64,000 bases of DNA from Chitinophagales bacterium (GCA_034440455.1 JAWXCB010000066.1:2807-66806), one strand, 5' to 3'; counted from the first letter of the stretch, positions 42,847 through 57,678 are shown. Program-made: numbers and translations. Notes: generated by a model from the letters alone, not told the origin.

Positions 42847-45657
42847 GTGATCAAGGCAGCCAAAGTACCGTTTTTTTGGGCGATTTTCTTTGCCATTTTA
42901 ATTTCTGTAGGATGTTCCTCCGGGAAAAAGTCGCAAGACCCTTCCCTCGCTGGGCAGGTTTATCATGACATCACCGCCCGCAACAATGCCTACTTCAACG
43001 GCACGCAGAAAATAAAAACCATCCAGAAAAGCATCGAAACATCCTACCAGGATAATTTCGACACCATCCTTGTGTTGCGCACCAACCGCGATCCTGCTAT
43101 GGCAAAAACCTACGGCAGCGATTTGGATGAAGTGGTAAAGAAAGCCTCTGCCGCCATCAAGCGCCACGAACCCAGCAAATGGACGGACGATGCCTATCTG
43201 CTTGTGGGCAAATCTTATTTCCTCAAAGGCGATTATGACGCTGCGCTGGAAACATTCAAGTTCGTGAACACCACCTTCAAAGAAGAGTTGAAGAAATCAG
43301 AGAAGAAAAAAGAGGTGAAGAAAAAAAAGAAGAAAAAATCAAACAGTAAAAAGAAGAAGAGCAGCAAAAAGAAAAAGAAGAAGAAAAAATCAAGCAGCAA
43401 GAAAAATATTCCGATAAAGACAACAAGCACACAGCCGCAACCCACCGCCATAGCTAAAAAGCCCGCAGATGAAAAGAAGAAGTCAAGCTCAGGTTTGTTG
43501 AAGCCTGTGCCCGTGCGCCCGCAGGCATGGGTTTGGCTGGTTGACACTTACACTGAAATAGACAAGTTTAAAGAAGCCGATGCGGTAGTTACGTTTATCG
43601 AAGCCGATGAAGAGTTTCCGAAAAAACTGAAGCGCGAGTTTGAAATATCAAAAGCGCATCTGGCAGTCAAACGCGGCAACTTGGAAAGTGCCATTGAGCC
43701 GCTCACGCAGGCAATTGAATTTACAAAGAAGAAAAAATACAAAGCGCGTTATTACTATGTGCTTGCGCAGATTTATGAAAACACTGCTCAATATCCCAAC
43801 GCGATTACAAATTATCAGGAGGTGTTGAAGAATCGTCCCAAGTTTGATTTGGAGTTTAATGCCAAAATCAGCATCGCGCGTATTGCAAGAAAAGACCGGT
43901 CGCTTTCAACAAATGAAATCACCGTGCTGCTCAAGAAGCTGCTGAAGGATGCCAAGAATCAGGACTTCTTTGACCAGGTGTATTATTCGCTTGCCGAGTT
44001 TGCCCTAAGCCGAGGCAATAAAGAGGAAGCGCTTGATTACCTTGAAAAGTCAGTGAAAAGCTCAACAACCAACGTGCTGCAAAAAGCGCTTTCCTACAAT
44101 AAGATGACAGAGATTTATTTCAACGACCAGTTGTATGTAAAAGCGCAGCCATACTCCGATAGCACGATGGCGATTCTCCCTACCGATTATAAGGGCTTTG
44201 ATGCCATTGCGCAGCGCGATGAAGTGCTGCGCGAGTTGGTGCGCCACTTGCAAACCATTGAAGAGCAGGATAGCATGTTGCGCATCGCCTCCATGACGGA
44301 AGACGAGCGTGAAAAGCTTGTGGATGATATCATCCGCAAGAAAGAAAAAGAGTTGGAAAGAAATGATATTGCTAACGACCCTTCGCAAATTGACCCGATG
44401 GTAAATGATAAGACGAAGCGGGAAGACCCCAATGCAACAGCTTCCACATCAGGATGGTATTTCTATAACGTCAATGCAAAATCAACAGGATTTAACAACT
44501 TCATCAAGCGCTGGGGCAACCGCAATTTAGAAGACGACTGGAGGCGCAACAATAAAAGTTCAGCCGCCTTTGATGATCAGGCAAGTTTCGATGATGACAG
44601 CTTGCAGCAAACAGCGAGCCTCTCCGATGCAAACCTTGATAAAGAAGCATTGCTGAAAGCCATCCCGCTCACCAATGAACAGGTGCAGAGATCCAATGCT
44701 TATATCATTGATGCGCTCTATCGCCTTGGAAATATTTACCGCATTGATTTGAAGAACTACAAAAAAGCGGTGGAGGCTTTTGAAGAATTGCTCAAGCGTT
44801 TCCCCGGCAACAAACATGAGCCGGAAACTTATTACAGCCTTTATCTGCTTCATGCGGAAATGGGCAATGCAGGCAAAGCTGTAGATTACAAAAACAGCTT
44901 GCTCAACAAATATCCCAACAGCCGCTATGCGCAGTATTTATTAAACCCTGATTTGCTTGAAACAGAAAAACGCAAAGACAGAAAGTTGCAGGATTATTAC
45001 AGTGGCGCGTATGAAATGTATCTGAATAATCAGCTTGCAGAAGCACTCGTTACCATCAATCAGGCTGACAGCATTTTTCCGCGTAATGAACTGCAATCAA
45101 AGTTTGCGCTGCTTGAAGCGCAGGTGATTGCAAAAACGCAGGATGTGCCAAAATATCTTGATGCGCTGCAAAGCGTGATTGACGATTTTCCCACCACACC
45201 GGAGCGCAACAAAGCCGAAGAAATTCTCAACTACCTGAAGGTGAAGGAAGATTCTTCTTTCCTTATGCAAATCAACATCAGCGAATACAAATATGATGTG
45301 GATGCCACGCACTTCTTCGTTGCATCTTACAATACCGATTCGGTGAACACAAATAATTTAATCAACGCAGTTGCTTCCTACAACGACCTCAACCGCAGCC
45401 TCGAAGATTTAAAAATCAACTCCGTTGCGCTGGATGATAAACATGCGTTTCTTGTGGTGAAGAGTTTCAAGAACATGAAAACCTCCATCAATTATTACAA
45501 TGCCATTTCCGCCAGCGCAGATACGTTTAAAGATTTCCCACCCGGCACGCTTGAGTTCTGCGTTATCTCCGATGTCAACTTCAACAAAGTAATCATGCAC
45601 TCCGAAATCGAATCCTATTTCAGATTTTTTGAAGCGCGTTACATCACGAATCAATAA
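42847..45657 (+). CDS. large TPR lipoprotein, PorW/SprE-like (tentative)
   Basis: GTG start, lipobox LISVGCSSG, the N-terminal YHDITARNNAYFNG pattern, multiple TPR-like repeats, 936 aa. It contains a Lys/Ser low-complexity insert. Confidence 0.55.
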   Translation: MIKAAKVPFFWAIFFAILISVGCSSGKKSQDPSLAGQVYHDITARNNAYFNGTQKIKTIQKSIETSYQDNFDTILVLRTNRDPAMAKTYGSDLDEVVKKASAAIKRHEPSKWTDDAYLLVGKSYFLKGDYDAALETFKFVNTTFKEELKKSEKKKEVKKKKKKKSNSKKKKSSKKKKKKKKSSSKKNIPIKTTSTQPQPTAIAKKPADEKKKSSSGLLKPVPVRPQAWVWLVDTYTEIDKFKEADAVVTFIEADEEFPKKLKREFEISKAHLAVKRGNLESAIEPLTQAIEFTKKKKYKARYYYVLAQIYENTAQYPNAITNYQEVLKNRPKFDLEFNAKISIARIARKDRSLSTNEITVLLKKLLKDAKNQDFFDQVYYSLAEFALSRGNKEEALDYLEKSVKSSTTNVLQKALSYNKMTEIYFNDQLYVKAQPYSDSTMAILPTDYKGFDAIAQRDEVLRELVRHLQTIEEQDSMLRIASMTEDEREKLVDDIIRKKEKELERNDIANDPSQIDPMVNDKTKREDPNATASTSGWYFYNVNAKSTGFNNFIKRWGNRNLEDDWRRNNKSSAAFDDQASFDDDSLQQTASLSDANLDKEALLKAIPLTNEQVQRSNAYIIDALYRLGNIYRIDLKNYKKAVEAFEELLKRFPGNKHEPETYYSLYLLHAEMGNAGKAVDYKNSLLNKYPNSRYAQYLLNPDLLETEKRKDRKLQDYYSGAYEMYLNNQLAEALVTINQADSIFPRNELQSKFALLEAQVIAKTQDVPKYLDALQSVIDDFPTTPERNKAEEILNYLKVKEDSSFLMQINISEYKYDVDATHFFVASYNTDSVNTNNLINAVASYNDLNRSLEDLKINSVALDDKHAFLVVKSFKNMKTSINYYNAISASADTFKDFPPGTLEFCVISDVNFNKVIMHSEIESYFRFFEARYITNQ

Positions 45658-45771: not shown

Positions 45772-48033
45772 ATGAGCAACCCCAAAAAGAAATCCTCTAA
45801 AGGCAGTTCAAATGACTTGTGGAAATATAACGCGTATTTCTGGCTTTTCTTTCTCGCGTGTGTCGGCTCGGTAGGTTTGTTTTTCTATTTGATTTCGATT
45901 GATGTGTTTGGCAAGCTGCCTACGTTTGAATCGCTTGAAAACCCCAAGAGCGAGCTTGCTTCTGAAATCATCTCCAGCGATGGCGAGGTGCTGGGGAAAT
46001 ATTTCAGCCAAAACAGAACCAACGCAAAATACAGCGAGTTGCCGCCCAATTTGGTAAACGCGCTGATTGCGACCGAAGATATCAGGTTTTATAATCACAG
46101 CGGAGTAGATGTGCGGGCTATTGCCAGAGCTGTCAGCGGGTTAGGCAGTAAGGGTGGCGGCAGCACGTTATCGCAACAGTTGGCAAAAAATCTTTTCCCC
46201 CGTGAGAACCTCAACAAGATAAAATTGATCATTCGGAAGTTAAAGGAATGGATTATCGCGGTGCGACTGGAGAAGTGCTACACGAAAGATGAAATCCTCA
46301 CGATGTATCTCAACACGGTGGAGTTCAGCAGCAATTCTTACGGTATCAAATCAGCGGCAAAAACCTATTTCAATAAGCAGGTGGATTCATTGAATGTAGA
46401 AGAAGGAGCAATATTAGTAGGGATGCTGCAGGCTCCATCTAAATATAACCCCAAACGAAATCCCGAACGCGCATTCAATCGCAGGAATACCGTGCTCGCG
46501 CAAATGAAGAAATATGAATACCTCAAGCCCGAAGAATTCGACAGCCTCAAATCGCTTCCCATCACGCTCAATTATCAAGCGCCTTCACACACCGAAGGGC
46601 TTGCGCCTTACTTCCGCGAGCGCCTGCGCCTTGAAGTGCAGCAGTGGCTCAATGAGTATGGAAAGCTGGATACTTCCCGTAAGTATAATCTCTACACCGA
46701 TGGATTAAAAATTTACACCACCATTGATTCACGCCTGCAGAGCCTTGCGGAGAAAGCAGTGACGCAGCACATGAAAATGCTGCAAACAGAATTCGCCAAG
46801 CAATGGGAAAAAGATGACCCGTGGAAAGACCAGAAAGAAGAATTTCAAAAAGCCATTAAAAACTCAGAGCGCTATCGCGCCATGAAAGAGCAGGGCGCAT
46901 CGCATGATTCCATCATGGCGAGTTTCAAAACAAAAATTCCCATGAGCATCTTCACATGGGAAGGCGAGCGCGACACCGTTATCACCCCGCTTGATTCGCT
47001 GCGCCATCACCGCATGTTTTTGCAGGCAGGCTTCCTTGCTGTTGACCCGCTCAACGGGCAGGTGCGCGCATGGGTGGGCGGCATCAACTATAAATATTTT
47101 CAGTATGACCACGTCACCACGCATCGCCAAATCGGCTCCACGTTCAAGCCTTTCATTTATACCGCAGCGATTGATAACGGCTGGTCGCCCTGTTTCAAGA
47201 TTCTTGATGTAGCCTACACGTTTGAAGATTTTAATAACTGGACTCCGCAAAATGCCGAGCGCGAAGGATTTACCAACGAGCGCTACACGCTCATGGATTG
47301 CCTTGCCGATTCGCGCAACTCCTGCTCAGCCTACCTGATGAAGCAAATCGGTCCGCAGCCTATTATTGACCTTGTGCGTAAGCTCGGCATCGAAAGCCAC
47401 ATTGATCCTTATCCTTCTATTTGCCTCGGCACGCCCGACCTCACGCTGCAAGAGATGGTGGGCGCATACACCGCATTTGCAAACAAGGGCGTTTTCTCAA
47501 AGCCCACTTACATCACGCGCATTGAAGATAAAAACGGCAACGTCATCCAGGAGTTTCCCACCGAATCCATCGAGGCGATGAGCGAGCAAACCGCCTTCAT
47601 CATGGTGGAGATGTTGCGCTATGTGGTGAGGCACGGCACGGGCGTGCGCCTGTGGATTCCCAAATATGAATATCAACTGCAAGCCGACATGGGCGGCAAA
47701 ACCGGCACCACGCAAAACCATAGCGATGGCTGGTTTATGGGCATCACCCCGCAGCTTATCGCTGGCGTGTGGGTGGGAGGTGAAGACCGCTTCATGCGCT
47801 TCGAGAGCATGAAATACGGGCAGGGCGCAAGTTCTGCGCTGCCCATCTGGGCGCTGTTTTTCAAGAGCCTCTATGCAGATTCTACATTAGGATACAGTCA
47901 GGAGGTGTTATTTGAACGCCCGCAGGAACGCCTCACCATCGAGCTTGACTGCTCCAAGTATGGCAAGTTCGGCACCAAAGAAGACCCCTTCAAATCCCCG
48001 AAGGGTTATGGGGAAGCTGAGTTTGAGAAATAG
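45772..48033 (+). CDS. mrcA: penicillin-binding protein 1A (bifunctional transglycosylase/transpeptidase)
   Basis: GT51 motifs EDIRFYNHSGVD, GGSTLSQQ and RKLKEW. Transpeptidase motifs STFKP, SRNS and KTGTT. Confidence 0.9.
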   Translation: MSNPKKKSSKGSSNDLWKYNAYFWLFFLACVGSVGLFFYLISIDVFGKLPTFESLENPKSELASEIISSDGEVLGKYFSQNRTNAKYSELPPNLVNALIATEDIRFYNHSGVDVRAIARAVSGLGSKGGGSTLSQQLAKNLFPRENLNKIKLIIRKLKEWIIAVRLEKCYTKDEILTMYLNTVEFSSNSYGIKSAAKTYFNKQVDSLNVEEGAILVGMLQAPSKYNPKRNPERAFNRRNTVLAQMKKYEYLKPEEFDSLKSLPITLNYQAPSHTEGLAPYFRERLRLEVQQWLNEYGKLDTSRKYNLYTDGLKIYTTIDSRLQSLAEKAVTQHMKMLQTEFAKQWEKDDPWKDQKEEFQKAIKNSERYRAMKEQGASHDSIMASFKTKIPMSIFTWEGERDTVITPLDSLRHHRMFLQAGFLAVDPLNGQVRAWVGGINYKYFQYDHVTTHRQIGSTFKPFIYTAAIDNGWSPCFKILDVAYTFEDFNNWTPQNAEREGFTNERYTLMDCLADSRNSCSAYLMKQIGPQPIIDLVRKLGIESHIDPYPSICLGTPDLTLQEMVGAYTAFANKGVFSKPTYITRIEDKNGNVIQEFPTESIEAMSEQTAFIMVEMLRYVVRHGTGVRLWIPKYEYQLQADMGGKTGTTQNHSDGWFMGITPQLIAGVWVGGEDRFMRFESMKYGQGASSALPIWALFFKSLYADSTLGYSQEVLFERPQERLTIELDCSKYGKFGTKEDPFKSPKGYGEAEFEK

Positions 48034-48844
48034 ATGATTTAGAGAATTAGGAATTACGAATTATTTTTCATTCGCCTCCCTCCACACATATTTGGCGCGT
48101 ACTTATCTTCTTTCATTTGTGGCTCTGTTTGGCAGCGCTGACAGCGGAAAATCAACACTTTTTTTTTGCGAAAACAAAAAGCGCCTTCCGGTTTTAGCGG
48201 TGAGCGCTTTTGAAATTTGTGAGCGCATTACGCGCGAAGTTGAAAGACTTCTCACCATCCTTCGCGCCAAGTCTCCCTGCGGAAGAATTGATACAACCGA
48301 GGTGTTTAGATGTCTGTATCAGTAGTGCAACTATGATAGCGCAATTCAGGCTGCACTCACTGCCTGCGGGGAATCCTGCGCTAAAATGACGAGCGCTTCT
48401 TTCCCAAATCTTTCTACTTTTGTCAGAACCTCCTTCTTACCTGAATGCGCCCGACAAGAATCAACATCTTTCTTGCACTATTTTTTTCAGCGTCAGCGTT
48501 TGCGACAACGATCCCAACCGACTCAACAAACAATGGCAATGATTCCATTCAACATTCTATTTCCGGATTTGAATCTTATTTTGAAAAGGATGTAATCCAA
48601 CAATCTCTGCTTGAACGGCTTTCGTTCAGAAGTATTAACCGGCTTGTGTTGTTACAGCCGGGTTCATTTTATGTCGGCAATGACACCTATTCTTCCTTCG
48701 GGTTGCTGTATGGAGAAAATGCAAATGAAAGCAAGATGATGGCGTGTTCGATGTTATGAGGAGTACTTGGATGCTAATAACTTCTATGTATGGAGAAGCC
48801 GACTGTGAAGTAGCGCAGCTTTCTTATTTCGTATAGTATCACTG

Positions 48845-51800
48845 CTAAAAAAGTTTCTGTTGAGAGTTATCAGCAATCTCTTTTTCATTGAATTGCTTTC
48901 CGAATTTCATTTTCCAGTAGGTATCGAGAATTTTCTTTTGAAGTTTTGATTCACTGGAAATTTCACGCGCAAGTTTTTCAAGTTGCTTGGCAAATTTCAA
49001 AGTGTCTTTTGCTTCATAATTCCCTTCGATAAGCAGTTGTTTAAGTTGCTCAACATATACGCTGAACTCAACTTTATTTCGTTGAGCTTTTACTCCTTTC
49101 ATGCTTTGCGCTTTGAGCAGTCGCGCGTCAATGAGTTTATAGGTAGCGCGATAAAGCTCAAGTAAAGTTTCATCGCGTTCTTTTTTGTTTTTATATCCAA
49201 GAGCTTCAAGTATAACGCTGTCTAATTTTATCCTTTGGGGATTTACTGTTTTCAGCGAATCAAGCGCGCCCAGTTCTTCTTTGTAGTTTTTTGTTTCTCC
49301 AAGTTCAACTTCTAAATGGTCAATGTTAATGTCAGGAACAAGAAAAGCAGCTAACTCATAAGTTTCAATTTTTCCTGCGCCATCTCCTAAGTTGCTGCGC
49401 ATAATCAGTTGTTGGATGAGCCAACTGATCGTTGAGTTCATGTAAAGCCAAATTGAATTTGTGTGTTTACGGGGATAGATGTTGTGAAAATTGTTGTTGG
49501 TGAAAACTTTGCCCTTGAATGTTCTGCCAAAATCGTTAATCATGTAATTGAAGGACATTGCAGGCAAGTCATGTTCGCCTAAATCATACCATAGTTTTCT
49601 TGAACTGCAAGTTGGACGGTGATGAATGTTTTGGCGTTCCCCATGCTTTATGTATTTGAATAAAAGCGGAAAGTCATTACGTAATGATTTTTTTGCTTCA
49701 TGCGTCAGCACGAATTTATTTTGAACCGCCTTTTGGCTTATCAGGTAAGCGCTAACGTCTTTCGGGCTGGTAAGAATTGGTTGCAAGCATTCTTCTTCAA
49801 TCAGCCACAACTCGCTGTAGCCGTTAAGCATCAACTTCAGTTTTGCATCCTTCAACTGTTTTGTAGAAGTGAACGCGTCCGTATTATTCATTGCTGCTTG
49901 TAGCAGAGCGCTGTTAGCAGTAGCTGTTTTGTCTTCTAAAATAAAAAACTCATTGCATCCGGTCTTTATCCCAAATTTTACATCAGCTAATTGTTTGAGT
50001 GGAACAAATTTGTTCGCGCCTTTTTCAATGATGTCGAAATAAACTTTTGGAGCTTTCAGAAATTGCCCCCACTTGGTAAAATTGGAGAGCGTTTCTTGTT
50101 TAACGCAATTGATGCGAAAAAAATCATTAGTCGTGTTTTCAGTTACATTCTCTAAAAATTCCTGCAACTGCGTTACTCCTTTATGGTTTTTAATTGCGTT
50201 GGCAACGGGCGCTGTGAACCAAATAAACTTTACGGTGCTGTTGTTTCTAACTTCTTCAATTCGCTGCTTCCGCAAAATAACAATCGTAGTGTTGACGGAA
50301 GCGGAAGGGAAAAAGCGTTCTACTTCACTATCCATAATGGCTACAATTTCAAAATTGCGCATCAGGTAGCGTTGCATATCAATTCCGTAATCTGTATCCA
50401 GCCAAGAGTTTTGACAGATGTAAGCAAGATAGCCGCCATCTTTTAAGAATGCGCTTGCATGGTAAAAGAAGTAAGCAAAGATGGATGTGCGCTGCGATGG
50501 TTCAAAACCACACTCAGATTTAATCAGTGCTTGAATTTTTGTTTTGCCAACTGTGCCGTGCATTGTCCCGATGTCCTCTTGTCGGGTATAGGGCGGGTTC
50601 CCTATCACTGCATCGAACTTTGGCAATGTTTTATTTTCCTTTTCACCTTGTTGATTGTGCAGTTCAATTTTTGTGTGCTCAGAAATCGCAAAAAAATCTT
50701 TGTTTGAAATGCGTGGGTAACTTGGCTTGCGCGTGTTGCGTATTGCGAGGTTAAGCATACTGAGGTATGCCGGGTAATTTGAAAGGTCGTTGCCGTAAAT
50801 CTCATTTAGCAAAATATCGTGCTTTGCTCCTTTCTCCTCTTTTGCGCACAACATTTTTTTGCGCTCGTAGGCGCGAACTAAAAAAGTGCCTGAGCCGCAA
50901 GATGGGTCGAAAACTTTATCGTTGCTTTTGCGAATAGCAAAGGCATTGATTAAGTCAATTACGTGTGGCGGTGTAAAGTATTGTCCGAGTTTGTGCCGCT
51001 CATCTTCACGGATGAGTTCTTCAAAAATTCGTCCGATGATGTCAAAGGGAATGTTGCTGAAATTGTAATGACCGCCTGTGTCAAGAATTTCTTTAACTAA
51101 ATCAAGAACAGCATCGCTGACAAAAGGGATTTTGAAAATAATATCGGAGCGTTCACCGATTAGGAGCTCAAAGTTTCCCGTTACCTCTTTAAACTCGTCA
51201 AAGTATTTCCAAATGAGTTCTTCCAAGCTGTCGGGGGTATTGACAGATTCGGGAACTTGCATAGGATGAAGCGCGTGCCATGTCTGATTGTCAACATACG
51301 TTTTATAAAAAATGAGTTTTGAAATCAGCATCAGCACACCAATGTGCGTGAGGTTTTCTATTTCCTCAAAGGTGGTGGGCTTATTCCATAACTGACTTTG
51401 CGCGTATCTCGTAATATCTTTTTCAAACGATTTGTTATGCTTGTATTTGTCCCAAACCTTGTTGCTGATTGGATGCGAATAAACTTCAATCAGCTTTCGA
51501 GTCTTGAAAATGAAAAGTTCATCAAGGTTGCTGAACTTAATCGGCTTACGCTCTAAAATTTCAATAGCGCGGTCAAGATAAAATTCCGCAATGCTGTGGA
51601 GTTTTGCGAGAACTTCTTTATTTGGCGCGTAGCTCTGGCTTAGTCGCGCAATGTCAGTAAGGGTAAAAAAACCTTCATTGACGCTCACTTTTTCATAGAG
51701 CTTGTCTTTGTCGAAAAATGCGCAAGCAAGAAAATTGCAGTTGCCAAAATATTTTATGTCAATGCGCTGCGCTCTTTCTACTTCCCGCATTAGAACGCTG

Positions 51801-52009
51801 CTGTCAAAAACACTTTTGCCGTCTTTTGCTGTCGGGTCTTTCAACTCGATAAAGAAAAGCGGAGTGCCGTTTTTATTTTTGAGCGTGATATCTGCGCGAT
51901 TCTCTTCTAAAGCAGGGTAAGGCAAAATCCGACCTTCCAATCCTCTTGCCTTAATGAGTTCTGTGAAGATTGTATTGAGCGTTCCCTGTAATTGGCGTTC
52001 TATCTGCAT
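48845..52009 (-). CDS. Type IIG restriction-modification enzyme (fused PD-ExK nuclease, N6-adenine methyltransferase and TaqI_C-like specificity domain)
   Basis: 1054 aa. N-terminal ADITL...FFIELKDP (D...ExK), FDPSCGSGTFLV (SAM motif I), VIGNPPYTRQED (motif IV NPPY), LADVKFGIKTGCNEFF (TaqI_C-type TRD). Confidence 0.8.
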   Translation of the reverse strand: MQIERQLQGTLNTIFTELIKARGLEGRILPYPALEENRADITLKNKNGTPLFFIELKDPTAKDGKSVFDSSVLMREVERAQRIDIKYFGNCNFLACAFFDKDKLYEKVSVNEGFFTLTDIARLSQSYAPNKEVLAKLHSIAEFYLDRAIEILERKPIKFSNLDELFIFKTRKLIEVYSHPISNKVWDKYKHNKSFEKDITRYAQSQLWNKPTTFEEIENLTHIGVLMLISKLIFYKTYVDNQTWHALHPMQVPESVNTPDSLEELIWKYFDEFKEVTGNFELLIGERSDIIFKIPFVSDAVLDLVKEILDTGGHYNFSNIPFDIIGRIFEELIREDERHKLGQYFTPPHVIDLINAFAIRKSNDKVFDPSCGSGTFLVRAYERKKMLCAKEEKGAKHDILLNEIYGNDLSNYPAYLSMLNLAIRNTRKPSYPRISNKDFFAISEHTKIELHNQQGEKENKTLPKFDAVIGNPPYTRQEDIGTMHGTVGKTKIQALIKSECGFEPSQRTSIFAYFFYHASAFLKDGGYLAYICQNSWLDTDYGIDMQRYLMRNFEIVAIMDSEVERFFPSASVNTTIVILRKQRIEEVRNNSTVKFIWFTAPVANAIKNHKGVTQLQEFLENVTENTTNDFFRINCVKQETLSNFTKWGQFLKAPKVYFDIIEKGANKFVPLKQLADVKFGIKTGCNEFFILEDKTATANSALLQAAMNNTDAFTSTKQLKDAKLKLMLNGYSELWLIEEECLQPILTSPKDVSAYLISQKAVQNKFVLTHEAKKSLRNDFPLLFKYIKHGERQNIHHRPTCSSRKLWYDLGEHDLPAMSFNYMINDFGRTFKGKVFTNNNFHNIYPRKHTNSIWLYMNSTISWLIQQLIMRSNLGDGAGKIETYELAAFLVPDINIDHLEVELGETKNYKEELGALDSLKTVNPQRIKLDSVILEALGYKNKKERDETLLELYRATYKLIDARLLKAQSMKGVKAQRNKVEFSVYVEQLKQLLIEGNYEAKDTLKFAKQLEKLAREISSESKLQKKILDTYWKMKFGKQFNEKEIADNSQQKLF

Positions 52010-52126
52010 GTGAAATCTTCAACTCAAAAGTAGGTTTTTATACCATCCTGAATAGCTTCAGTTATCCTTTCTATGAAACAGTAGCAGGTTGCCTAACATA
52101 CAAAATGCGTATTCGTAATTTTCACA

Positions 52127-54562
52127 TCACGGGTCAACATCCACGTCCACTCGCACTGATTTGTATTCTACTTTCAACTTCAGCTTTTCAATGCTTTGCA
52201 CGAGTGCATGTTTATTCGCATTGAGTGCTGCCGTCTTTGGAATTTTCAAAAGGATGTCCTGTAAGTAAAGATTCTTCATCATACTGATGGGCGGAGTAAC
52301 CGGTCCAAGAATTGTTCCCTGAAAATTTTCAGCGAGCAGCCGCGCGAAATCCCGTGCGGCATTCTGCACAGTTTTCCGCTCTTTGTGTTTCAGCACAAGA
52401 TGAATCAGCCGCGTGTAAGGCGGATAGTCAAACTCTTTCCTGAAATTCATTTCGCGGTAAAAGAAATTCTCAAAATCATTTTTCAGGATAAAATCCAACA
52501 CAGGATGTTCGGCATCAAAGGTCTGAATAAGCACTTTGCTCGCATGTCCCTTTCTGCCTGCGCGTCCGCTCACCTGTTGTATCAATTGAAAGCCGCGCTC
52601 ATTCGCTCGAAAGTCGGGGAAGCCAAGCAGTTGGTCAGCGCTCAGGATGCCGACTAAACTTACCGTGTCGAAATCCAATCCCTTTGTCACCATCTGTGTG
52701 CCCACGAGAATATCAAACTTCCTGTTTTCAAAATCAGCGATGATTTGCTCGTAAGCCTCGCGTGAACGCGCAGCATCCAAATCGAGGCGCATCACGCCCG
52801 CATCCGGAAAAAAGATTTTGATTTCTTCTTCAATCTTTTCCGTGCCGAAGCCGCGAATGCGAATGTCGGTTGATTCGCACTCCACGCATTTATTCACTAC
52901 TTCCGTTGCGTAACCGCAATAGTGGCAGCGCAATGTGTTGAGATGTTTGTGATAAGAAAGGCTCACATCACAGTTCACGCATTTCGGAATCCAGCCGCAA
53001 TGATAACAACTCAGGTATGGGGCAAACCCGCGCCTGTTTTGAAACAGAATCACCTGCTCTTTTTTTACAAGCGTTGCTTTGATTTCTTCGAGCAGCACAG
53101 AAGAAAAGTCAGATTGCATTTTATGCTTCTTCGTTTCCTCGCGCAGGTTCACGATTTCCATGCGCGGCAGTTGCACACCTCCAAAGCGCTCGGTGAGTTT
53201 CACGAAACCATACTTGCCATGCCGCGCATTTTCATAACTCTCCAACGAAGGAGTTCCTGTGCCGAGCAAAACTTTCGCGCCTGTATCATGCGCGAGATAA
53301 ATCGCAGCATCACGCGCCTGGTAGCGTGGCGCAGGGTCGAATTGCTTGTAAGAGGGATCATGCTCTTCATCAACGATTACCAAACCAAGCTCGGAGAAAG
53401 GCAGGAACAACGCGGAGCGCGCGCCAATCACGGCTTTATATTCTTTGCGCAACAGTTTATTCCAAATTTCCACGCGCTCGTTTGCCGTGAACTTAGAGTG
53501 ATAAATGCCAATCGTTTCTCCAAACACTTCGCGCAGCCGCCTGACAAGTTGCGTGGTCAGCGCAATTTCAGGAAGCAGGTAGAGCGCTTGTTTCCCATTG
53601 GCGAGCGCCTCTTTTATCAACTCCATGTAGAGTTGCGTTTTCCCCGATGATGTCACGCCATGCAGGAGAACAACATCCTTTTTCTCAAACCATGTTTTTA
53701 TTTCGTGTAAAGATTTCTGCTGCACTTCGCTTAAAATGTATTCCTTCTTTTCAGAAACCACAACATCCCACGTAAGCCTGTCTACTTCTTTTTTCTGCTC
53801 ATGCAGAATACCTTTTTGTATCAACTGTTTAAGAGCGGCAGATGAAATACCTGATGTTTCAATGAGTTTCGACTTTTTGATTTCTGCTGCGCCCGCCTGG
53901 AGAAAAGCCATCAACGCTTCTTGCTGCCGTTTGGCTTTGTTTAATTCATCTAATGTTTTATTCAGTAGTTCTTCATCGCTGTATTCTGCGGCAAGCTCGA
54001 TATAGTTCTCTGTTTTCGGCTTGTATTTCTCCACGAGTTTTTCAAACGCATACACCGCATTTTTTTCAATCAGTGATTTAATCAGCGCGTGAACTGTTTT
54101 CCTCCGCGTCAGTTTTTCAAGCTGTTGAACGCTCAGCGACTTTTTAATGCGCAATGCTTCCATCACTAAAAACTGCGCATTGTCCAGCTTCGATTCGTCT
54201 TCATCCCATTCGGGATGCAGCGCGATATTGGTTTCGCTGTCGAGCTTCAAGCCTTGCGGCATGGCGGCATTCATCACTTCGCCCAGCGTACACAGGTAGT
54301 AGGATGCAATCCATTTCCAGAACTCAATGTTATGCGGATGCACCACCGGCTCGTCATCAAGCACTTCAAGAATTGGTTTTGCTTTGTGCAGTTCCGGTTG
54401 GTTGTTGTGCAGCCTGCCGACCAACGCGGTATAAATCTTTCGTGCGCCAAACTGCACCACCACGCGCTTGCCGATAGCAATGTGTTCGCTGAATTCCTGC
54501 GGAACCAAGTAAGTGAACATTCCCGGAACGGGAAGCGGAAGAATAACGTCAGCGAAGAGCAT
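52127..54562 (-). CDS. priA: primosomal protein N' (replication restart helicase PriA)
   Basis: 811 aa. Walker A GVTSSGKT, VDEEH box, and the Cys-rich zinc region CYHCG..CVNCD...CHYCG. Confidence 0.92.
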   Translation of the reverse strand: MLFADVILPLPVPGMFTYLVPQEFSEHIAIGKRVVVQFGARKIYTALVGRLHNNQPELHKAKPILEVLDDEPVVHPHNIEFWKWIASYYLCTLGEVMNAAMPQGLKLDSETNIALHPEWDEDESKLDNAQFLVMEALRIKKSLSVQQLEKLTRRKTVHALIKSLIEKNAVYAFEKLVEKYKPKTENYIELAAEYSDEELLNKTLDELNKAKRQQEALMAFLQAGAAEIKKSKLIETSGISSAALKQLIQKGILHEQKKEVDRLTWDVVVSEKKEYILSEVQQKSLHEIKTWFEKKDVVLLHGVTSSGKTQLYMELIKEALANGKQALYLLPEIALTTQLVRRLREVFGETIGIYHSKFTANERVEIWNKLLRKEYKAVIGARSALFLPFSELGLVIVDEEHDPSYKQFDPAPRYQARDAAIYLAHDTGAKVLLGTGTPSLESYENARHGKYGFVKLTERFGGVQLPRMEIVNLREETKKHKMQSDFSSVLLEEIKATLVKKEQVILFQNRRGFAPYLSCYHCGWIPKCVNCDVSLSYHKHLNTLRCHYCGYATEVVNKCVECESTDIRIRGFGTEKIEEEIKIFFPDAGVMRLDLDAARSREAYEQIIADFENRKFDILVGTQMVTKGLDFDTVSLVGILSADQLLGFPDFRANERGFQLIQQVSGRAGRKGHASKVLIQTFDAEHPVLDFILKNDFENFFYREMNFRKEFDYPPYTRLIHLVLKHKERKTVQNAARDFARLLAENFQGTILGPVTPPISMMKNLYLQDILLKIPKTAALNANKHALVQSIEKLKLKVEYKSVRVDVDVDP

Positions 54563-54682: not shown

Positions 54683-55598
54683 TCACTTAAACAAAAAATC
54701 AAGCGCGCCTTCGGGCTTGTAAATGCCACCCTCCGAATAGTTTCCCAACACGGGATTTTTCGGATAGAGCGGGTCTTGGTTCAGCAGCTTTTTCATGGAG
54801 GCATACACTTCGGGAAGTTCAGTATTAAATTGTTGCGGCAGTTCAAAAAAACATTCCGCGCATACGGCAAGAAACTCATCGCGGTTTTGCACGAGTCGGT
54901 TTTTTAGAAATTCAATCTTTTTGCTTTTGAGTTTCAGCATCTCCACAGTAGCAAGTTTTTCGATGATTTCATTGTTGTCATAAAAAGTGAAATCAACATG
55001 GTGTTGCAGCGCATATACTTTCAGCGTGCATGAGTTCGTGCAAGCCGAGGTTCACGCCATCATCAGGAAAGAGATAACCCTTTTCAAAGTTGTTCCACGA
55101 AAGATGAATGCTGCCATATTCGGAAACATGCCCTCTGAATTTTACTTTGTAATGCTTGTAGAGATAGGATTCGGGATACACATAAATCTGATGAAATTCT
55201 TTCAGCCGGAAATAGCTCAACCCGAACGTGAGTTGAATTGCAGAGGCGCTGATGAGAATCTTCATGCGCTCCGTAAGAATTAACCCGTTTTTAGGAATAA
55301 ATTTTTTGCTTTGCATGAACATTAGCAGGCGCAACTCAAACCTGCGCCTGTTCGCATTATCCAATTTGTTGTAATAAGGAAAATACTGCACCAGTGTGCG
55401 GATAATTTCAGGAGGATGGTGATAGGAGAAAAAATTATAGCGCCAGTAAACCAGTTTATCTCTCACCGGAGAGATGATGAAGTAAGCGATACCGATGAAG
55501 GGAAGGGAAAGGAAAGTATTCCCATGAATATCAGCAGAAAGACAAACCCGAATAGGAGACCGAGGATTTCTTCCAAAGTAGTGCAGTGTTTTCCTCAA
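54683..55598 (-). pseudogene. M90 (MtfA-like) zinc peptidase split by a frameshift
   Basis: ORF 54993-55598 carries the family N-terminal pattern up to NLGLHELMHA (HExxH). ORF 54683-54946 and its upstream extension carry YALQHHVDF...DEFLAVCAECFFELPQQF...LYPK, the family C-terminus. The frames meet at GCTGAAAGTATATGCG, around 54995-55010. Confidence 0.6.
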
Positions 55599-55649: not shown

Positions 55650-55847
55650 TTAAGCGGTCAGGATTTTTTCTGCCATCTCAAGCACACTCACAGCCTGTTT
55701 ATGCTTCACGCTGGAAAATTCATCCAGAAATTTTTCAAGCGGATGTCCTGCTTCCAAATAATCAAAAAGGTTCTTCACGGGTACGCGGATGCCGGTAAAC
55801 ACAGGTGTTCCACTTAACACATCTTTTTTTACGGAGATAATATTCAT
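55650..55847 (-). CDS. DUF433-family protein (orphan, antitoxin-like)
   Basis: KDVLSGTPVFTGIRVPVKNLFDYLEAGHPLEKFLDEF matches the DUF433 core. Confidence 0.7.
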   Translation of the reverse strand: MNIISVKKDVLSGTPVFTGIRVPVKNLFDYLEAGHPLEKFLDEFSSVKHKQAVSVLEMAEKILTA

Positions 55848-57217: not shown

Positions 57218-57460
57218 ATGATTCTCGAATACATGCAAGCTGCAATGCGCAAAGCCCGCTATGAGTATTTGCCTGATGATAAGTTGTATTCTGGTGAAAT
57301 CCCCGGATTCAAAGGCGTGTATGCTTCATCAAAACATCTTGAAGATTGCCGCAAAGAATTACATGCAGTGCTGGAAGACTGGCTGCTTATCAGCCTGCAA
57401 AGAAACCTTCCCATTCCGGTAGTAAATAAGATTTCTCTTAAAATCAAGAACGTGGCATAG
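57218..57460 (+). CDS. hicB: HicB-family antitoxin
   Basis: 80 aa. The YSGEIPGFKGVYASSKHLEDCRKELHAVLEDWL pattern is typical of short HicB proteins. Its stop abuts the next ATG. Confidence 0.7.
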   Translation: MILEYMQAAMRKARYEYLPDDKLYSGEIPGFKGVYASSKHLEDCRKELHAVLEDWLLISLQRNLPIPVVNKISLKIKNVA

Positions 57461-57678
57461 ATGCCATCGCTGAAACCCGTAAAAAGAAATGAGCTTATCC
57501 GCTTTTTACAAATGCGCGGATTTGAAGAACCGTTTGCAGGAGGGAAACATCAGTTTCTGATTAAAGGGCCACTACGCCTTACATTACTCAATCCACACCA
57601 TCAGATATTGGAGTGAACCTGCTTGCTAAAATTCTTAAACAAGCGGAGATACCTAAATCGGAGTGGAACAAAATCTAA
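57461..57678 (+). pseudogene. hicA: HicA-family toxin gene with a frameshift
   Basis: MPSLKPVKRNELIRFLQMRGFEEPFAGGKHQFLIKGPLRLTLLNPHHQ reads into a stop at 57614-57616. The family C-terminus DIGVNLLAKILKQAEIPKSEWNKI* continues in the +1 frame from 57604. Adding one A after 57603 restores NPHHQDIG. Confidence 0.65.

What the first reader, a model, noticed from the sequence alone, without database searches (positions are those of the whole stretch)
48034..52126. AT-rich, gene-poor scar plus a single-polypeptide Type IIG R-M enzyme inserted between PBP1A and priA
Two core genes, mrcA (ends 48033) and priA (ends 52127), are separated by about 4.1 kb.

The first ~810 bp (48034-48844) have no convincing gene. 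One ORF there (48445-48759) has a good signal peptide (RINIFLALFFSASAFA) but no recognisable continuation, so it may be the stump of an outer-membrane protein gene.

The rest is a 1054-aa protein combining several modules:
- a PD-ExK-like N-terminus (ADITL...FFIELKDP);
- gamma-class N6-adenine methyltransferase motifs (FDPSCGSGTFLV, GNPPYTRQ);
- a TaqI_C-type target-recognition segment (FGIKTGCNEFF);
- a coiled-coil-like tail.

By eye the R-M gene is clearly more AT-rich than priA or mrcA; this was not computed. That fits horizontal acquisition. No separate methyltransferase, specificity subunit or controller gene is present.
Basis: partly seen in the sequence, partly recalled or inferred. Interest (0 to 1): 0.55.

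Follow-up and report, generated by a model that had tools for sequence, protein, structure and literature searches.

The report
Solitary restriction-methylase gene beside deletion scar
The 1054-residue gene is an ordinary, though uncharacterised, single-chain restriction-modification enzyme acquired horizontally, and the 'empty' 810 bases beside it are the joint left where sibling genomes carry 6.8 kb of envelope genes between two 327-bp repeats.

Summary
The coordinates and motifs are correct. The ORF at 48845-52009 (-) encodes a 1054-aa fusion of five modules:
- an N-terminal PD-ExK nuclease (D40-x14-E55-x-K57, invariant in 46 homologues)
- a helical connector
- a gamma-class N6-adenine methyltransferase (DPSCGSG, NPPY)
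- a C-terminal target-recognition domain
- a helical tail

The AlphaFold model (pLDDT 85.5) matches the Type IIG enzyme BpuSI best, over its whole length.

The gene is solitary here and in five homologue loci, each in a different context.

Horizontal acquisition is supported by synteny and phylogeny, not by composition:
- It is absent downstream of priA in the closest priA relative (89% identity).
- It is 73-74% identical to Mucilaginibacter homologues, where priA is only about 50% identical.
- GC (0.402, z about -1.2) and codon usage (rank 23 of 32) are within the window's range.

The 810-bp gap is not AT-rich (GC 0.430 against 0.441 for the window). Contigs 99.8% identical to the window carry 6.8 kb there, between two 327-bp direct repeats: a priA 3' remnant, a phasin-like gene, mlaEFD and a split TonB-receptor-like gene. 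The window keeps one hybrid repeat copy. The 104-aa ORF is the 5' stump of that receptor-like gene.

This is a new member of a known kind, of low to moderate interest.

The parts
48845..52009 (-). Complete 1054-aa gene for a single-chain (Type IIG-like) restriction-modification enzyme
   Evidence: ORF. Pfam N6_Mtase 2.1e-27, Eco57I 2e-21, MmeI_Mtase 2.5e-10. PADLOC REase_MTase_IIG 6e-39. AF2 model pLDDT 85.5; top Foldseek hit is BpuSI 3s1s, E 6.5e-24 over 1040 columns. More than 100 full-length homologues.
51635..52009 (-). N-terminal PD-(D/E)xK nuclease domain (aa 1-125). Catalytic D40-x14-E55-L-K57 is encoded at 51839-51892.
   Evidence: D40, E55, K57, D58 and P59 are invariant in 46 homologues of 36-78% identity. 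[quoted passage not shown] The N-terminal model (pLDDT 92) hits BpuSI at 3e-4, then DrdV, EcoR124I HsdR, V. vulnificus HsdR, RecU and Rai1. Sub-threshold Pfam HSDR_N over aa 35-61.
51065..51634 (-). Helical connector (aa 126-315) between the nuclease and the methyltransferase
   Evidence: All-helical in both AF2 models. It aligns with the BpuSI nuclease-plus-connector region. The BpuSI connector spans residues 175-289 (PMC3185434).
50135..51064 (-). Gamma-class N6-adenine methyltransferase domain (aa 316-625). Motif I DPSCGSG is at 50888-50908; motif IV NPPY is at 50588-50599.
   Evidence: Pfam hits cover aa 323-605. D368, P369, C371, G372, S373, G374 and N471-P-P-Y474 are invariant. PDB sequence hits to M.BseCI, Type I HsdM, BsaXI and M.TaqI.
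49190..50134 (-). Target-recognition domain (aa 626-940), starting near FGIKTGCNEFF
   Evidence: Aligns with the M.BseCI TRD entry motif. Fold matches to M.BseCI and CamA methyltransferase-plus-TRD. Precomputed PF22837 M_Eco57I_C. It is the least conserved domain: 58% identity in the 10 closest homologues against 77-81% for the other domains.
48845..49189 (-). C-terminal helical tail (aa 941-1054), including a 54-residue helix
   Evidence: AF2 helices 942-995, 1004-1017, 1021-1036 and 1042-1053. No Pfam or PDB sequence match. A role as an HsdS-like conserved helix is inference only.
52010..52126 (.). 117-bp spacer between the priA stop and the R-M start (GC 0.342); presumed promoter region
   Evidence: DNA homology to other R-M loci stops at the ORF ends. 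Similarity between the priA 3' end and its remnant in sibling contigs ends a few bases after the stop codon.
48728..48844 (.). 117-bp unique spacer between the R-M stop and the repeat. It holds the last 10 codons of the stump ORF and a weak terminator-like hairpin at 48803-48818.
   Evidence: The same spacer is present in L001-L005 next to repeat copy R1.
48401..48727 (.). Single hybrid copy of a 327-bp repeat. The repeat is direct and occurs twice in sibling contigs, where it brackets 6.8 kb.
   Evidence: blastn: this stretch matches both L001 13283-13609 and L001 20087-20413. The window carries R1 alleles at 48622, 48673 and 48725 and R2 alleles at 48404-48534. Relative to L001, L003 and L005 the crossover lies between 48535 and 48621.
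48445..48759 (+). 104-aa stump ORF: signal peptide plus the first 94 codons of the 454-aa secreted (TonB-receptor-like N-terminal) protein, then 10 unrelated codons. Pseudogene.
   Evidence: tblastn of p454 against the window gives 90% identity over aa 1-103. Alignment. The partner protein p640 hits TIGR01786 TonB-dependent receptor at E 1.1e-7, below the curated cut-off.
48034..48400 (.). Native intergenic DNA between mrcA and the 454-aa gene. The 77-aa ORF at 48092-48325 has no family hit.
   Evidence: Collinear with L001 20414-20780 at 99.7%. No Pfam hit for the 77-aa ORF.

Best explanation
**The gene (48845-52009, minus strand)**
- It encodes a solitary Type IIG-like restriction-modification enzyme in one chain.
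- The C-terminal target-recognition domain reads a short, probably asymmetric, DNA site.
- The central gamma-class methyltransferase uses S-adenosylmethionine to make N6-methyladenine in that site on host DNA.
- On unmodified incoming DNA, the N-terminal PD-ExK nuclease, positioned by the helical connector, cuts at a fixed distance from the site.
- Shown here: the domain architecture, the conserved catalytic residues, the fold match and the absence of partner genes.
- Inferred by analogy with BpuSI, Eco57I and MmeI: the enzymatic activities, the site and the cleavage geometry.

**How it got there**
- The gene was acquired horizontally as a bare ORF, directly downstream of priA.

**The 810-bp gap beside it**
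- It is a deletion joint, not degraded DNA.
- In sibling genomes the R-M gene is followed by this series:
  - a 5' duplicate of the 454-aa gene (repeat R1)
  - a decayed priA 3' remnant
  - a phasin-like gene
  - mlaE, mlaF and mlaD
  - a 640-aa plus 454-aa TonB-receptor-like pair, which carries repeat R2
  - mrcA
- Recombination between R1 and R2 removed 6.8 kb in the window's lineage and left one hybrid repeat.
For: **Architecture and catalytic residues**
- Searches give the methyltransferase and Type IIG profile hits.
- One search shows invariant D40, E55, K57, DPxCGSG and NPPY in 46 homologues.
- the full-length model (pLDDT 85.5) has BpuSI as its top hit (E 6.5e-24, 1040 columns). DrdV and MmeI are also hit.
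- the N-terminal model (pLDDT 92) hits BpuSI first, then Type I HsdR nuclease domains.
- the nuclease is as conserved as the methyltransferase, and the TRD is the most variable domain.

**Solitary gene**
- Searches show six different genomic contexts with no shared neighbour.

**Horizontal acquisition**
- the 89% priA relative keeps the upstream synteny but has no R-M gene downstream.
- the R-M protein is 73-74% identical to Mucilaginibacter proteins, against about 50% for priA.
- homologues exist in Pyrococcus and on haloarchaeal plasmids.
- DNA homology stops at the ORF ends.

**Deletion joint**
- Searches show the two repeats, the 6.8 kb between them and the hybrid alleles in the window.
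- the Logan k=31 contig L091 is 100% identical to the window across the joint. Four other Logan assemblies break 33 nt into the repeat.
- Searches identify the priA remnant.
Against: - No activity, methylation motif or cleavage data exist for any member of this family in what I could search.
- The N-terminal fold match is modest on its own: E 3e-4, TM 0.39, and no sequence-level PDB hit.
- Composition gives no support for recent transfer.
- The window-type joint could still come from a single sample, if the window was assembled from the same reads as L091.
- A path that skips a repeat-bounded loop is a known assembler behaviour.
- The direction of the event cannot be told from the hybrid alleles. 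It could be deletion from the long form, or integration of a circle into the short form.
- The repeat alleles are themselves shuffled between copies in L002 and L004.
Confidence: 0.8

Rival explanations
1. The protein is only a DNA methyltransferase: an orphan or regulatory enzyme whose N-terminal nuclease-like domain is inactive or structural. Public annotations call it 'N-6 DNA methylase' or 'HsdM family'.
For: - All source names call it a methylase.
- The strongest sequence and fold hits after BpuSI are pure methyltransferases: M.BseCI and CamA.
- No nuclease family passes a curated threshold.
Against: - D40, E55 and K57 are invariant.
- The nuclease domain is as conserved as the methyltransferase domain across 36-78% identity.
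- M.BseCI and CamA lack the 315 N-terminal residues.
- The N-terminal module occurs almost only at the N-terminus of 1000-1260-aa fusion proteins.
Confidence: 0.1
2. The protein is the methyltransferase component of a multi-gene defence system (BREX PglX, DISARM DrmMI, MADS MAD2 or Type I HsdM) whose partner genes lie elsewhere.
For: Partial hits to MAD2, PglX and DrmMI profiles. Fold hits to BrxX/PglX.
Against: - Scores are far below the curated cut-offs: MAD2 77.6 against 720, PglX 43.9 against 500.
- The hits cover only the methyltransferase core.
- No BREX, DISARM, MADS or Hsd partner lies within 10 kb here, nor in five homologue loci.
Confidence: 0.04
3. The short mrcA-to-R-M joint in the window is an assembly artefact. 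The assembler skipped the 6.8-kb loop between two near-identical 327-bp repeats, and only the long form exists in nature.
For: - Five longer contigs from other assemblies all show the long form.
- Several contigs break at the repeat edges.
- Allele shuffling between the repeat copies in L002 and L004 suggests assembler mixing.
Against: - An independent k=31 Logan contig (L091, SRR6448214) runs straight through the repeat from mrcA into the R-M gene and is 100% identical to the window.
- In samples with both contexts, Logan contigs stop 33 nt into the repeat.
Confidence: 0.2
4. The R-M gene is ancestral at this locus and was lost from relatives, rather than being acquired.
For: Host-like GC and codon usage. 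All contigs of this species carry it.
Against: - It is absent downstream of priA in relatives at 89%, 83%, 82% and 76% priA identity.
- Its identity to homologues in other classes far exceeds that of priA.
- A decayed priA 3' remnant beyond the gene in sibling contigs marks a rearrangement at exactly this point.
Confidence: 0.08

Closest known systems
RM.BpuSI (Bacillus pumilus; PDB 3S1S), a Type IIG/IIS/IIC enzyme
   Same: - Same order of modules in one chain: PD-x(14-15)-ExK nuclease, helical connector, gamma-class N6-adenine methyltransferase with NPPY, then a C-terminal TRD.
- Best Foldseek hit for both the whole model and the N-terminal 310 residues (domain limits from PMC3185434).
   Different: - Only 12-13% sequence identity, and no sequence-level hit to the N-terminus.
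- BpuSI is 878 aa and is encoded with two companion methyltransferases (PMC3185434); this gene has none.
- This protein has an extra helical tail of about 110 residues.
MmeI family (Type IIL; PDB 5HR4) and DrdV (PDB 7LO5)
   Same: Solitary single-chain R-M enzymes that need no companion methyltransferase. The MmeI_Mtase Pfam domain passes its cut-off (40.4 bits against 27). Both are fold hits.
   Different: The Pfam scan returned no family outside aa 323-605, so no MmeI-type N-terminal, helical, TRD or C-terminal module was detected. The Eco57I and N6_Mtase profiles score higher. Fold E-values are 1e-13 to 1e-15, against 6.5e-24 for BpuSI.
M.BseCI and CamA (methyltransferase plus TRD, no nuclease)
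   Same: Best sequence-level PDB hit: M.BseCI at 2.9e-10 over aa 342-693, including the G-I-K-T motif that opens the TRD. TM-score normalised to the target is 0.58-0.68.
   Different: They lack the N-terminal nuclease, the connector (315 aa) and the C-terminal tail. They are modification-only enzymes.
Predicted Type IIG fusions related to Haloferax HVO_A0006 (PD-x14-ExK N-terminus; roughly 1040-aa bacterial homologues such as Melioribacter roseus WP_014855429)
   Same: The same D-x14-ExK spacing and a similar length of about 1040-1050 aa, predicted as Type IIG in REBASE according to PMC4389544. Haloarchaeal megaplasmid homologues are 25-28% identical over aa 37-892.
   Different: That paper's members are likewise uncharacterised as nucleases.
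R-M insertion with long target duplication, and R-M-linked rearrangements (Furuta et al. 2010, PMC2853133)
   Same: The R-M unit has no integrase, transposase or terminal repeats. In sibling contigs it is bracketed by two direct copies of the target's priA 3' end, about 160 bp.
   Different: The two copies are only about 67-75% identical. The bracketed unit also holds a 327-bp piece of a gene from 6.8 kb away. No empty site is available for comparison. The criteria of that paper were therefore not met in full.

Membership tests
Type IIG (single-chain R-M-S fusion) restriction-modification enzymes | Nuclease, methyltransferase and target-recognition modules in one polypeptide | tested here: met
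   AF2 models and Foldseek: BpuSI is the top hit over 1040 columns. Pfam and PADLOC profiles agree.
Type IIG (single-chain R-M-S fusion) restriction-modification enzymes | Intact nuclease catalytic motif (PD-(D/E)xK) | tested here: met
   D40-x14-E55-L-K57 is invariant in 46 homologues. [quoted passage not shown] Weak HSDR_N hit over aa 35-61.
Type IIG (single-chain R-M-S fusion) restriction-modification enzymes | N6-adenine methyltransferase motifs I (xGxG) and IV (NPPY) in gamma order, with the TRD C-terminal | tested here: met
   DPSCGSG at aa 368-374 precedes NPPY at aa 471-474; both are invariant. N6_Mtase 96.7 bits and Eco57I 77.3 bits.
Type IIG (single-chain R-M-S fusion) restriction-modification enzymes | Site-specific cleavage at a fixed distance, SAM-dependent or SAM-stimulated, with self-protective methylation | not testable with these tools
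   Needs enzyme assays and methylome data.
MmeI-like Type IIL subfamily | MmeI-type methyltransferase domain together with MmeI-type N-terminal, helical, TRD and C-terminal modules | tested here: not met
   Only MmeI_Mtase is hit (40.4 bits). The Pfam scan reported no family outside aa 323-605. The fold match to MmeI 5hr4 is weaker than to BpuSI.
BREX PglX / BrxX | Full-length PglX profile match and linked BREX genes (brxA, brxB, brxC, pglZ, brxL) | tested here: not met
   NCBIfam BREX_1_MTaseX scores 43.9 bits against a cut-off of 500. No such genes lie within 10 kb.
MADS MAD2 methyltransferase | Equivalog-level profile match and linked MADS genes | tested here: not met
   77.6 bits against a cut-off of 720. 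No linked genes.
Type I HsdM | Separate hsdS and hsdR partner genes; an M subunit of about 500 aa | tested here: not met
   Only the methyltransferase core aligns with HsdM. The protein is 1054 aa with its own nuclease and TRD. No hsdS or hsdR nearby.
Type ISP (LlaGI / LlaBIII) | A helicase-like ATPase motor between the nuclease and the methyltransferase | tested here: not met
   No helicase or ATPase family hit. Residues 126-315 form a helical bundle. The LlaBIII fold hit covers the methyltransferase and TRD only.
R-M insertion with long target duplication (Furuta et al. 2010) | The R-M unit is flanked by direct repeats longer than 30 bp that occur once in an empty-site genome | tested here: inconclusive
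   Direct priA 3' copies flank the R-M gene plus stump in L001-L005, but at only about 67-75% identity. No empty-site relative was found.

The most novel reading that the evidence does not exclude
Arrival of the R-M gene would have built the 327-bp duplication, for example by homology-anchored illegitimate recombination that used the priA 3' end as its anchor. That duplication would now act as a recombination switch. It would repeatedly delete, and possibly re-insert by way of a circle, a 6.8-kb block holding the Mla lipid transporter and a TonB-receptor-like gene. A defence-gene insertion would thus create standing cell-envelope heterogeneity in a natural population. Separately, the protein would found a distinct Type IIG subfamily with an unknown recognition site and a new C-terminal helical module. 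Only about 233 clusters at 50% identity share its N-terminal module.
Probability: 0.15. Interest if true: 0.45.

Novelty: new member of a known kind. Interest (0 to 1): 0.25.

Why it matters
**The enzyme**
- It adds one more predicted specificity to a well-understood class.
- The family is compact and well conserved. It is spread across Bacteroidota and reaches Archaea, and it moves as a bare ORF.
- It could be a convenient source of new Type IIG specificities if it is characterised.

**The locus**
- It is a clean natural example of R-M-linked genome rearrangement. A priA 3' remnant and a duplicated gene stump mark the arrival. The duplicate then mediates loss of 6.8 kb of envelope genes in part of the population.

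**Annotation**
- Public records label the protein as a plain methylase or HsdM. That label misses the conserved nuclease.
- A 'gene-poor gap' in a MAG can be a repeat-mediated structural variant, or a collapsed repeat, rather than degraded DNA.

Tried and rejected
- **RNA genes.** Rfam at permissive E-values and ARAGORN over the gap and gene found nothing. An RNA gene in the gap is rejected.
- **Promoters and terminators.** The consensus scan found no more sites than in shuffled sequence, so it is uninformative. Bacteroidota promoters are not covered by that scan.
- **Mobile-element signatures.** A search for terminal inverted or direct repeats around the R-M gene gave only short chance-level matches. 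No transposase or integrase lies nearby.
- **Compositional test for transfer.** GC, GC3 and codon distance show no outlier.
- **N-terminal profile against PDB sequences.** No hit.
- **C-terminal 429 aa against Pfam and PDB.** No meaningful hit.
- **Genome-contig scan with priA.** The nearest relatives (82% and 76% identity) share no downstream synteny, so no ancestral empty site was recovered.
- **Metagenome-contig scan with the 640-aa protein.** Only remote hits at 33-34% identity.
- **The 6.8-kb segment elsewhere in the window.** blastn found no copy.
- **Polarising deletion against integration from the repeat alleles.** This is symmetric by construction and further blurred by allele shuffling in L002 and L004.

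Full report
**1. Observation**

The stated anatomy is correct.
- mrcA (753 aa, Transgly plus Transpeptidase) ends at 48033.
- priA (811 aa, with all PriA domains) occupies 52127-54562 on the minus strand.
- One 1054-aa ORF lies at 48845-52009 on the minus strand.
- The 811 bp at 48034-48844 hold only short ORFs. None has a Pfam or NCBIfam hit, and the region has no Rfam or tRNA hit.
- All four quoted peptide motifs are present.

The composition claim holds only relative to the two neighbours.
- The R-M gene has GC 0.402 and GC3 0.425. mrcA has GC 0.496 and priA 0.472.
- The window's 34 long ORFs average GC 0.445 with sd 0.035. Several gld genes are lower than the R-M gene.
- The gene's synonymous-codon distance from the rest ranks 23rd of 32.
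- The gap itself has GC 0.430, against 0.441 for the whole window. It is not AT-rich.

**2. The protein**

*Sequence-level hits*
- aa 323-605 match N6_Mtase (2.1e-27), Eco57I (2e-21) and MmeI_Mtase (2.5e-10).
- PADLOC's best model is REase_MTase_IIG at 6e-39.
- NCBIfam hits to MAD2 and PglX fall far below their curated cut-offs and cover only the methyltransferase core.
- The best PDB sequence hit is M.BseCI over aa 342-693. It runs through the G-I-K-T motif that opens the TRD.

*Family conservation*
- More than 100 full-length homologues of about 1050 aa exist at 36-78% identity.
- Three motifs are invariant in an alignment of 46 of them:
  - D40, E55-L-K57-D58-P59 (that is, D-x14-ExK)
  - D368-P-x-C-G-S-G374
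  - N471-P-P-Y474
- The nuclease domain is as conserved as the methyltransferase: 81% against 80% in the ten closest homologues.
- The TRD (aa 626-940) is the most variable domain, at 58%. This pattern is expected when the catalytic modules are maintained and specificity diverges.

*Structure*
- The full-length AlphaFold model has mean pLDDT 85.5 and pTM 0.70.
- Its best PDB match is the Type IIG enzyme BpuSI (E 6.5e-24 over 1040 columns). M.BseCI and CamA follow, then BrxX, DrdV, LlaBIII and MmeI.
- A separate model of aa 1-310 (pLDDT 92) again hits BpuSI first (3e-4). DrdV, the nuclease domains of EcoR124I and V. vulnificus HsdR, RecU and Rai1 follow. All of these are PD-(D/E)xK folds.
- A sub-threshold Pfam HSDR_N hit lies exactly over aa 35-61.
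- BpuSI has the same layout: nuclease residues 6-174 with PD-x15-ExK, connector 175-289, methyltransferase 293-579, then the TRD (PMC3185434).
- The last 110 residues are predicted as long helices with no detectable relative.

*Spread of the N-terminal module*
- A profile of the N-terminal module finds only 233 representative clusters among 1.84 billion. In nearly all full-length proteins it sits at the N-terminus of a 1000-1260-aa chain.

**3. Solitary and mobile**

- Within 10 kb on either side lie PhoD, a HicB/HicA-like pair, DUF433, Peptidase_M90, priA, mrcA, a TPR protein, M23, bactofilin, UvrC and GldN/GldM. There is no second methyltransferase, specificity subunit, controller, BREX or DISARM gene.
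- Five homologues sit in five unrelated contexts with no shared neighbour.
- DNA similarity to those loci starts and stops at the ORF ends.
- No terminal repeats, integrase or transposase flank the gene.
- The closest priA relative (89% identity, L104) keeps the upstream order PhoD, p386, M90, priA, but a 1592-aa secreted protein follows priA. Relatives at 83%, 82% and 76% also lack the R-M gene there.
- The R-M protein is 73-74% identical to Mucilaginibacter proteins, while priA is only about 50% identical to Mucilaginibacter priA.
- Homologues occur in Pyrococcus (41%) and on haloarchaeal megaplasmids (25-28%).
- Horizontal acquisition is therefore well supported, without any help from composition.

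**4. The 810-bp gap**

*The long form*
- Sixteen public contigs encode exactly this protein. The five longest are 99.8% identical to the window but have 7.6 kb between the R-M gene and mrcA.
- In R-M orientation that interval holds, in order:
  - the same 104-aa stump
  - a 56-aa ORF
  - a 121-aa phasin-related gene
  - mlaE, mlaF and mlaD
  - a 640-aa gene
  - a 454-aa gene
  - the 77-aa ORF

*The repeat*
- blastn shows that window 48401-48727 matches two places in those contigs, L001 13283-13609 (R1) and L001 20087-20413 (R2).
- R1 and R2 are direct repeats, 98-99% identical. Each consists of the 44 bp upstream of the 454-aa gene plus its first 283 bp.
- The window has one copy. It carries R1 alleles on the R-M side (48622, 48673, 48725) and R2 alleles on the mrcA side (48404-48534).
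- This is the product expected from a single crossover between R1 and R2 that removes 6.8 kb.

*The stump ORF*
- The 104-aa ORF is the first 94 codons of the 454-aa gene followed by 10 unrelated codons.
- The 640-aa partner has a weak TonB-dependent-receptor barrel hit (TIGR01786, 1.1e-7, below the cut-off).

*Real variant or artefact*
- Logan contig L091 (SRR6448214, k=31) is 100% identical to the window from 47501 to 49500, across the joint.
- Four other Logan assemblies end 33 nt into the repeat, and one ends 32 nt before its far edge. That is what happens when both contexts are present in a sample.
- This favours a real variant. An artefact, or a single-sample origin, is not excluded.
- The 6.8-kb block is not elsewhere in the window.

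**5. Traces of the arrival**

- In the long-form contigs, the 56-aa ORF abutting R1 is a remnant of the priA C-terminus. It is 72% identical to aa 759-808 (E 3e-21), with about 67-75% DNA identity and a 6-bp deletion.
- Similarity to the live priA ends a few bases after the stop codon.
- The R-M gene plus stump therefore lies between two direct copies of the priA 3' end. This recalls R-M 'insertion with long target duplication' (PMC2853133).
- It is also compatible with homology-anchored illegitimate recombination in which incoming DNA replaced the end of priA. That is inference only.
- No empty-site genome was found. The order of events therefore stays open, as does the choice between deletion of the 6.8 kb and its re-insertion.
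- Repeat alleles at 48510-48534 swap between R1 and R2 in L002 and L004. This reflects either gene conversion or assembler mixing.

**6. Mechanism**

The best-supported reading is a solitary Type IIG-like enzyme.
- The TRD binds a short site.
- The gamma-class methyltransferase methylates an adenine in that site on host DNA.
- The PD-ExK domain cleaves unmodified DNA at a distance set by the connector.
- Shown: the architecture, the residues, the fold and the solitary context.
- Inferred from BpuSI, Eco57I and MmeI: the activities, the site and the cut geometry.
- Whether it modifies one strand like MmeI, or needs two sites, cannot be told.

**7. Comparison, novelty and verdict**

- It works like BpuSI, Eco57I and MmeI. 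It meets every testable Type IIG criterion.
- It is not an MmeI-family member in the strict sense, because only the methyltransferase domain profile matches.
- It fails the tests for PglX, MAD2, HsdM and Type ISP.
- It probably belongs with the predicted PD-x14-ExK Type IIG fusions of about 1040 aa noted around Haloferax HVO_A0006 (PMC4389544). That link was not tested.
- Verdict: a new, uncharacterised member of a known kind, beside an ordinary but neatly documented repeat-mediated structural variant. Interest is low to moderate.

Noticed in passing
window 54683-55598 (-): The Peptidase_M90 gene is split in the window. tblastn gives two pieces in different frames, 55508-55008 and 55027-54686. 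It is an intact 296-aa ORF in L001-L003, and is also truncated in L004. This is a frameshift pseudogene or a sequencing error.
   Followed up: partly
L001 13609-13779 (+); absent from the window: A 56-aa ORF that is a decayed copy of the priA C-terminus: 72% aa identity to aa 759-808, with a weak PriA_C hit. It abuts repeat R1, so the R-M gene plus stump is bracketed by two direct priA 3' ends.
   Followed up: yes
window 48510, 48516, 48519, 48534 and the matching positions in L002 and L004: The alleles that distinguish the two repeat copies are swapped in some assemblies. R1 in L002 looks like R2, and R2 in L004 looks like R1. The cause is gene conversion between the copies or assembler mixing.
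   Followed up: partly
L004 19005-20364: The 454-aa secreted-protein gene is split into 229-aa and 230-aa ORFs in the NCBI MAG GCA_964539155.1. The 454-aa and 640-aa pair may itself be a split TonB-dependent-receptor-like gene that is decaying.
   Followed up: no
window 57218-57616 (+): An 80-aa UPF0150 (HicB-like) ORF is followed immediately by a 51-aa ORF. The second ORF's sequence (…FLQMRGFEEPFAGGKHQFL…) looks like a short HicA toxin by eye. This is a probable toxin-antitoxin pair between PhoD and the 386-aa gene.
   Followed up: no
window 55650-55847 (-): A 65-aa DUF433 protein, a family often found in small antitoxin-like modules. It stands alone between the 386-aa gene and Peptidase_M90.
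   Followed up: no
window 42847-45657 (+): The 936-aa TPR-like protein upstream of mrcA has a long lysine/serine low-complexity run (…KKSEKKKEVKKKKKKKSNSKKKKSSKKKKKKKKSSSKK…). The strong AT skew at about 43000-43750 comes from this run.
   Followed up: no
P0080, P0110 and hits H1-H3: Family members are labelled Rotaria sordida (66% identity, on a 1.45-Mb contig, probably a bacterial contig in a rotifer assembly) and Pyrococcus kukulkanii (41%). Others lie on haloarchaeal megaplasmids (25-28%). This points to cross-domain spread of the family.
   Followed up: no
L098 5921-6001: The Mucilaginibacter homologue P0029 is called 27 residues short. DNA homology to the window gene begins 80 bp upstream of its annotated start, so the true start is probably at L098 5921.
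   Followed up: partly
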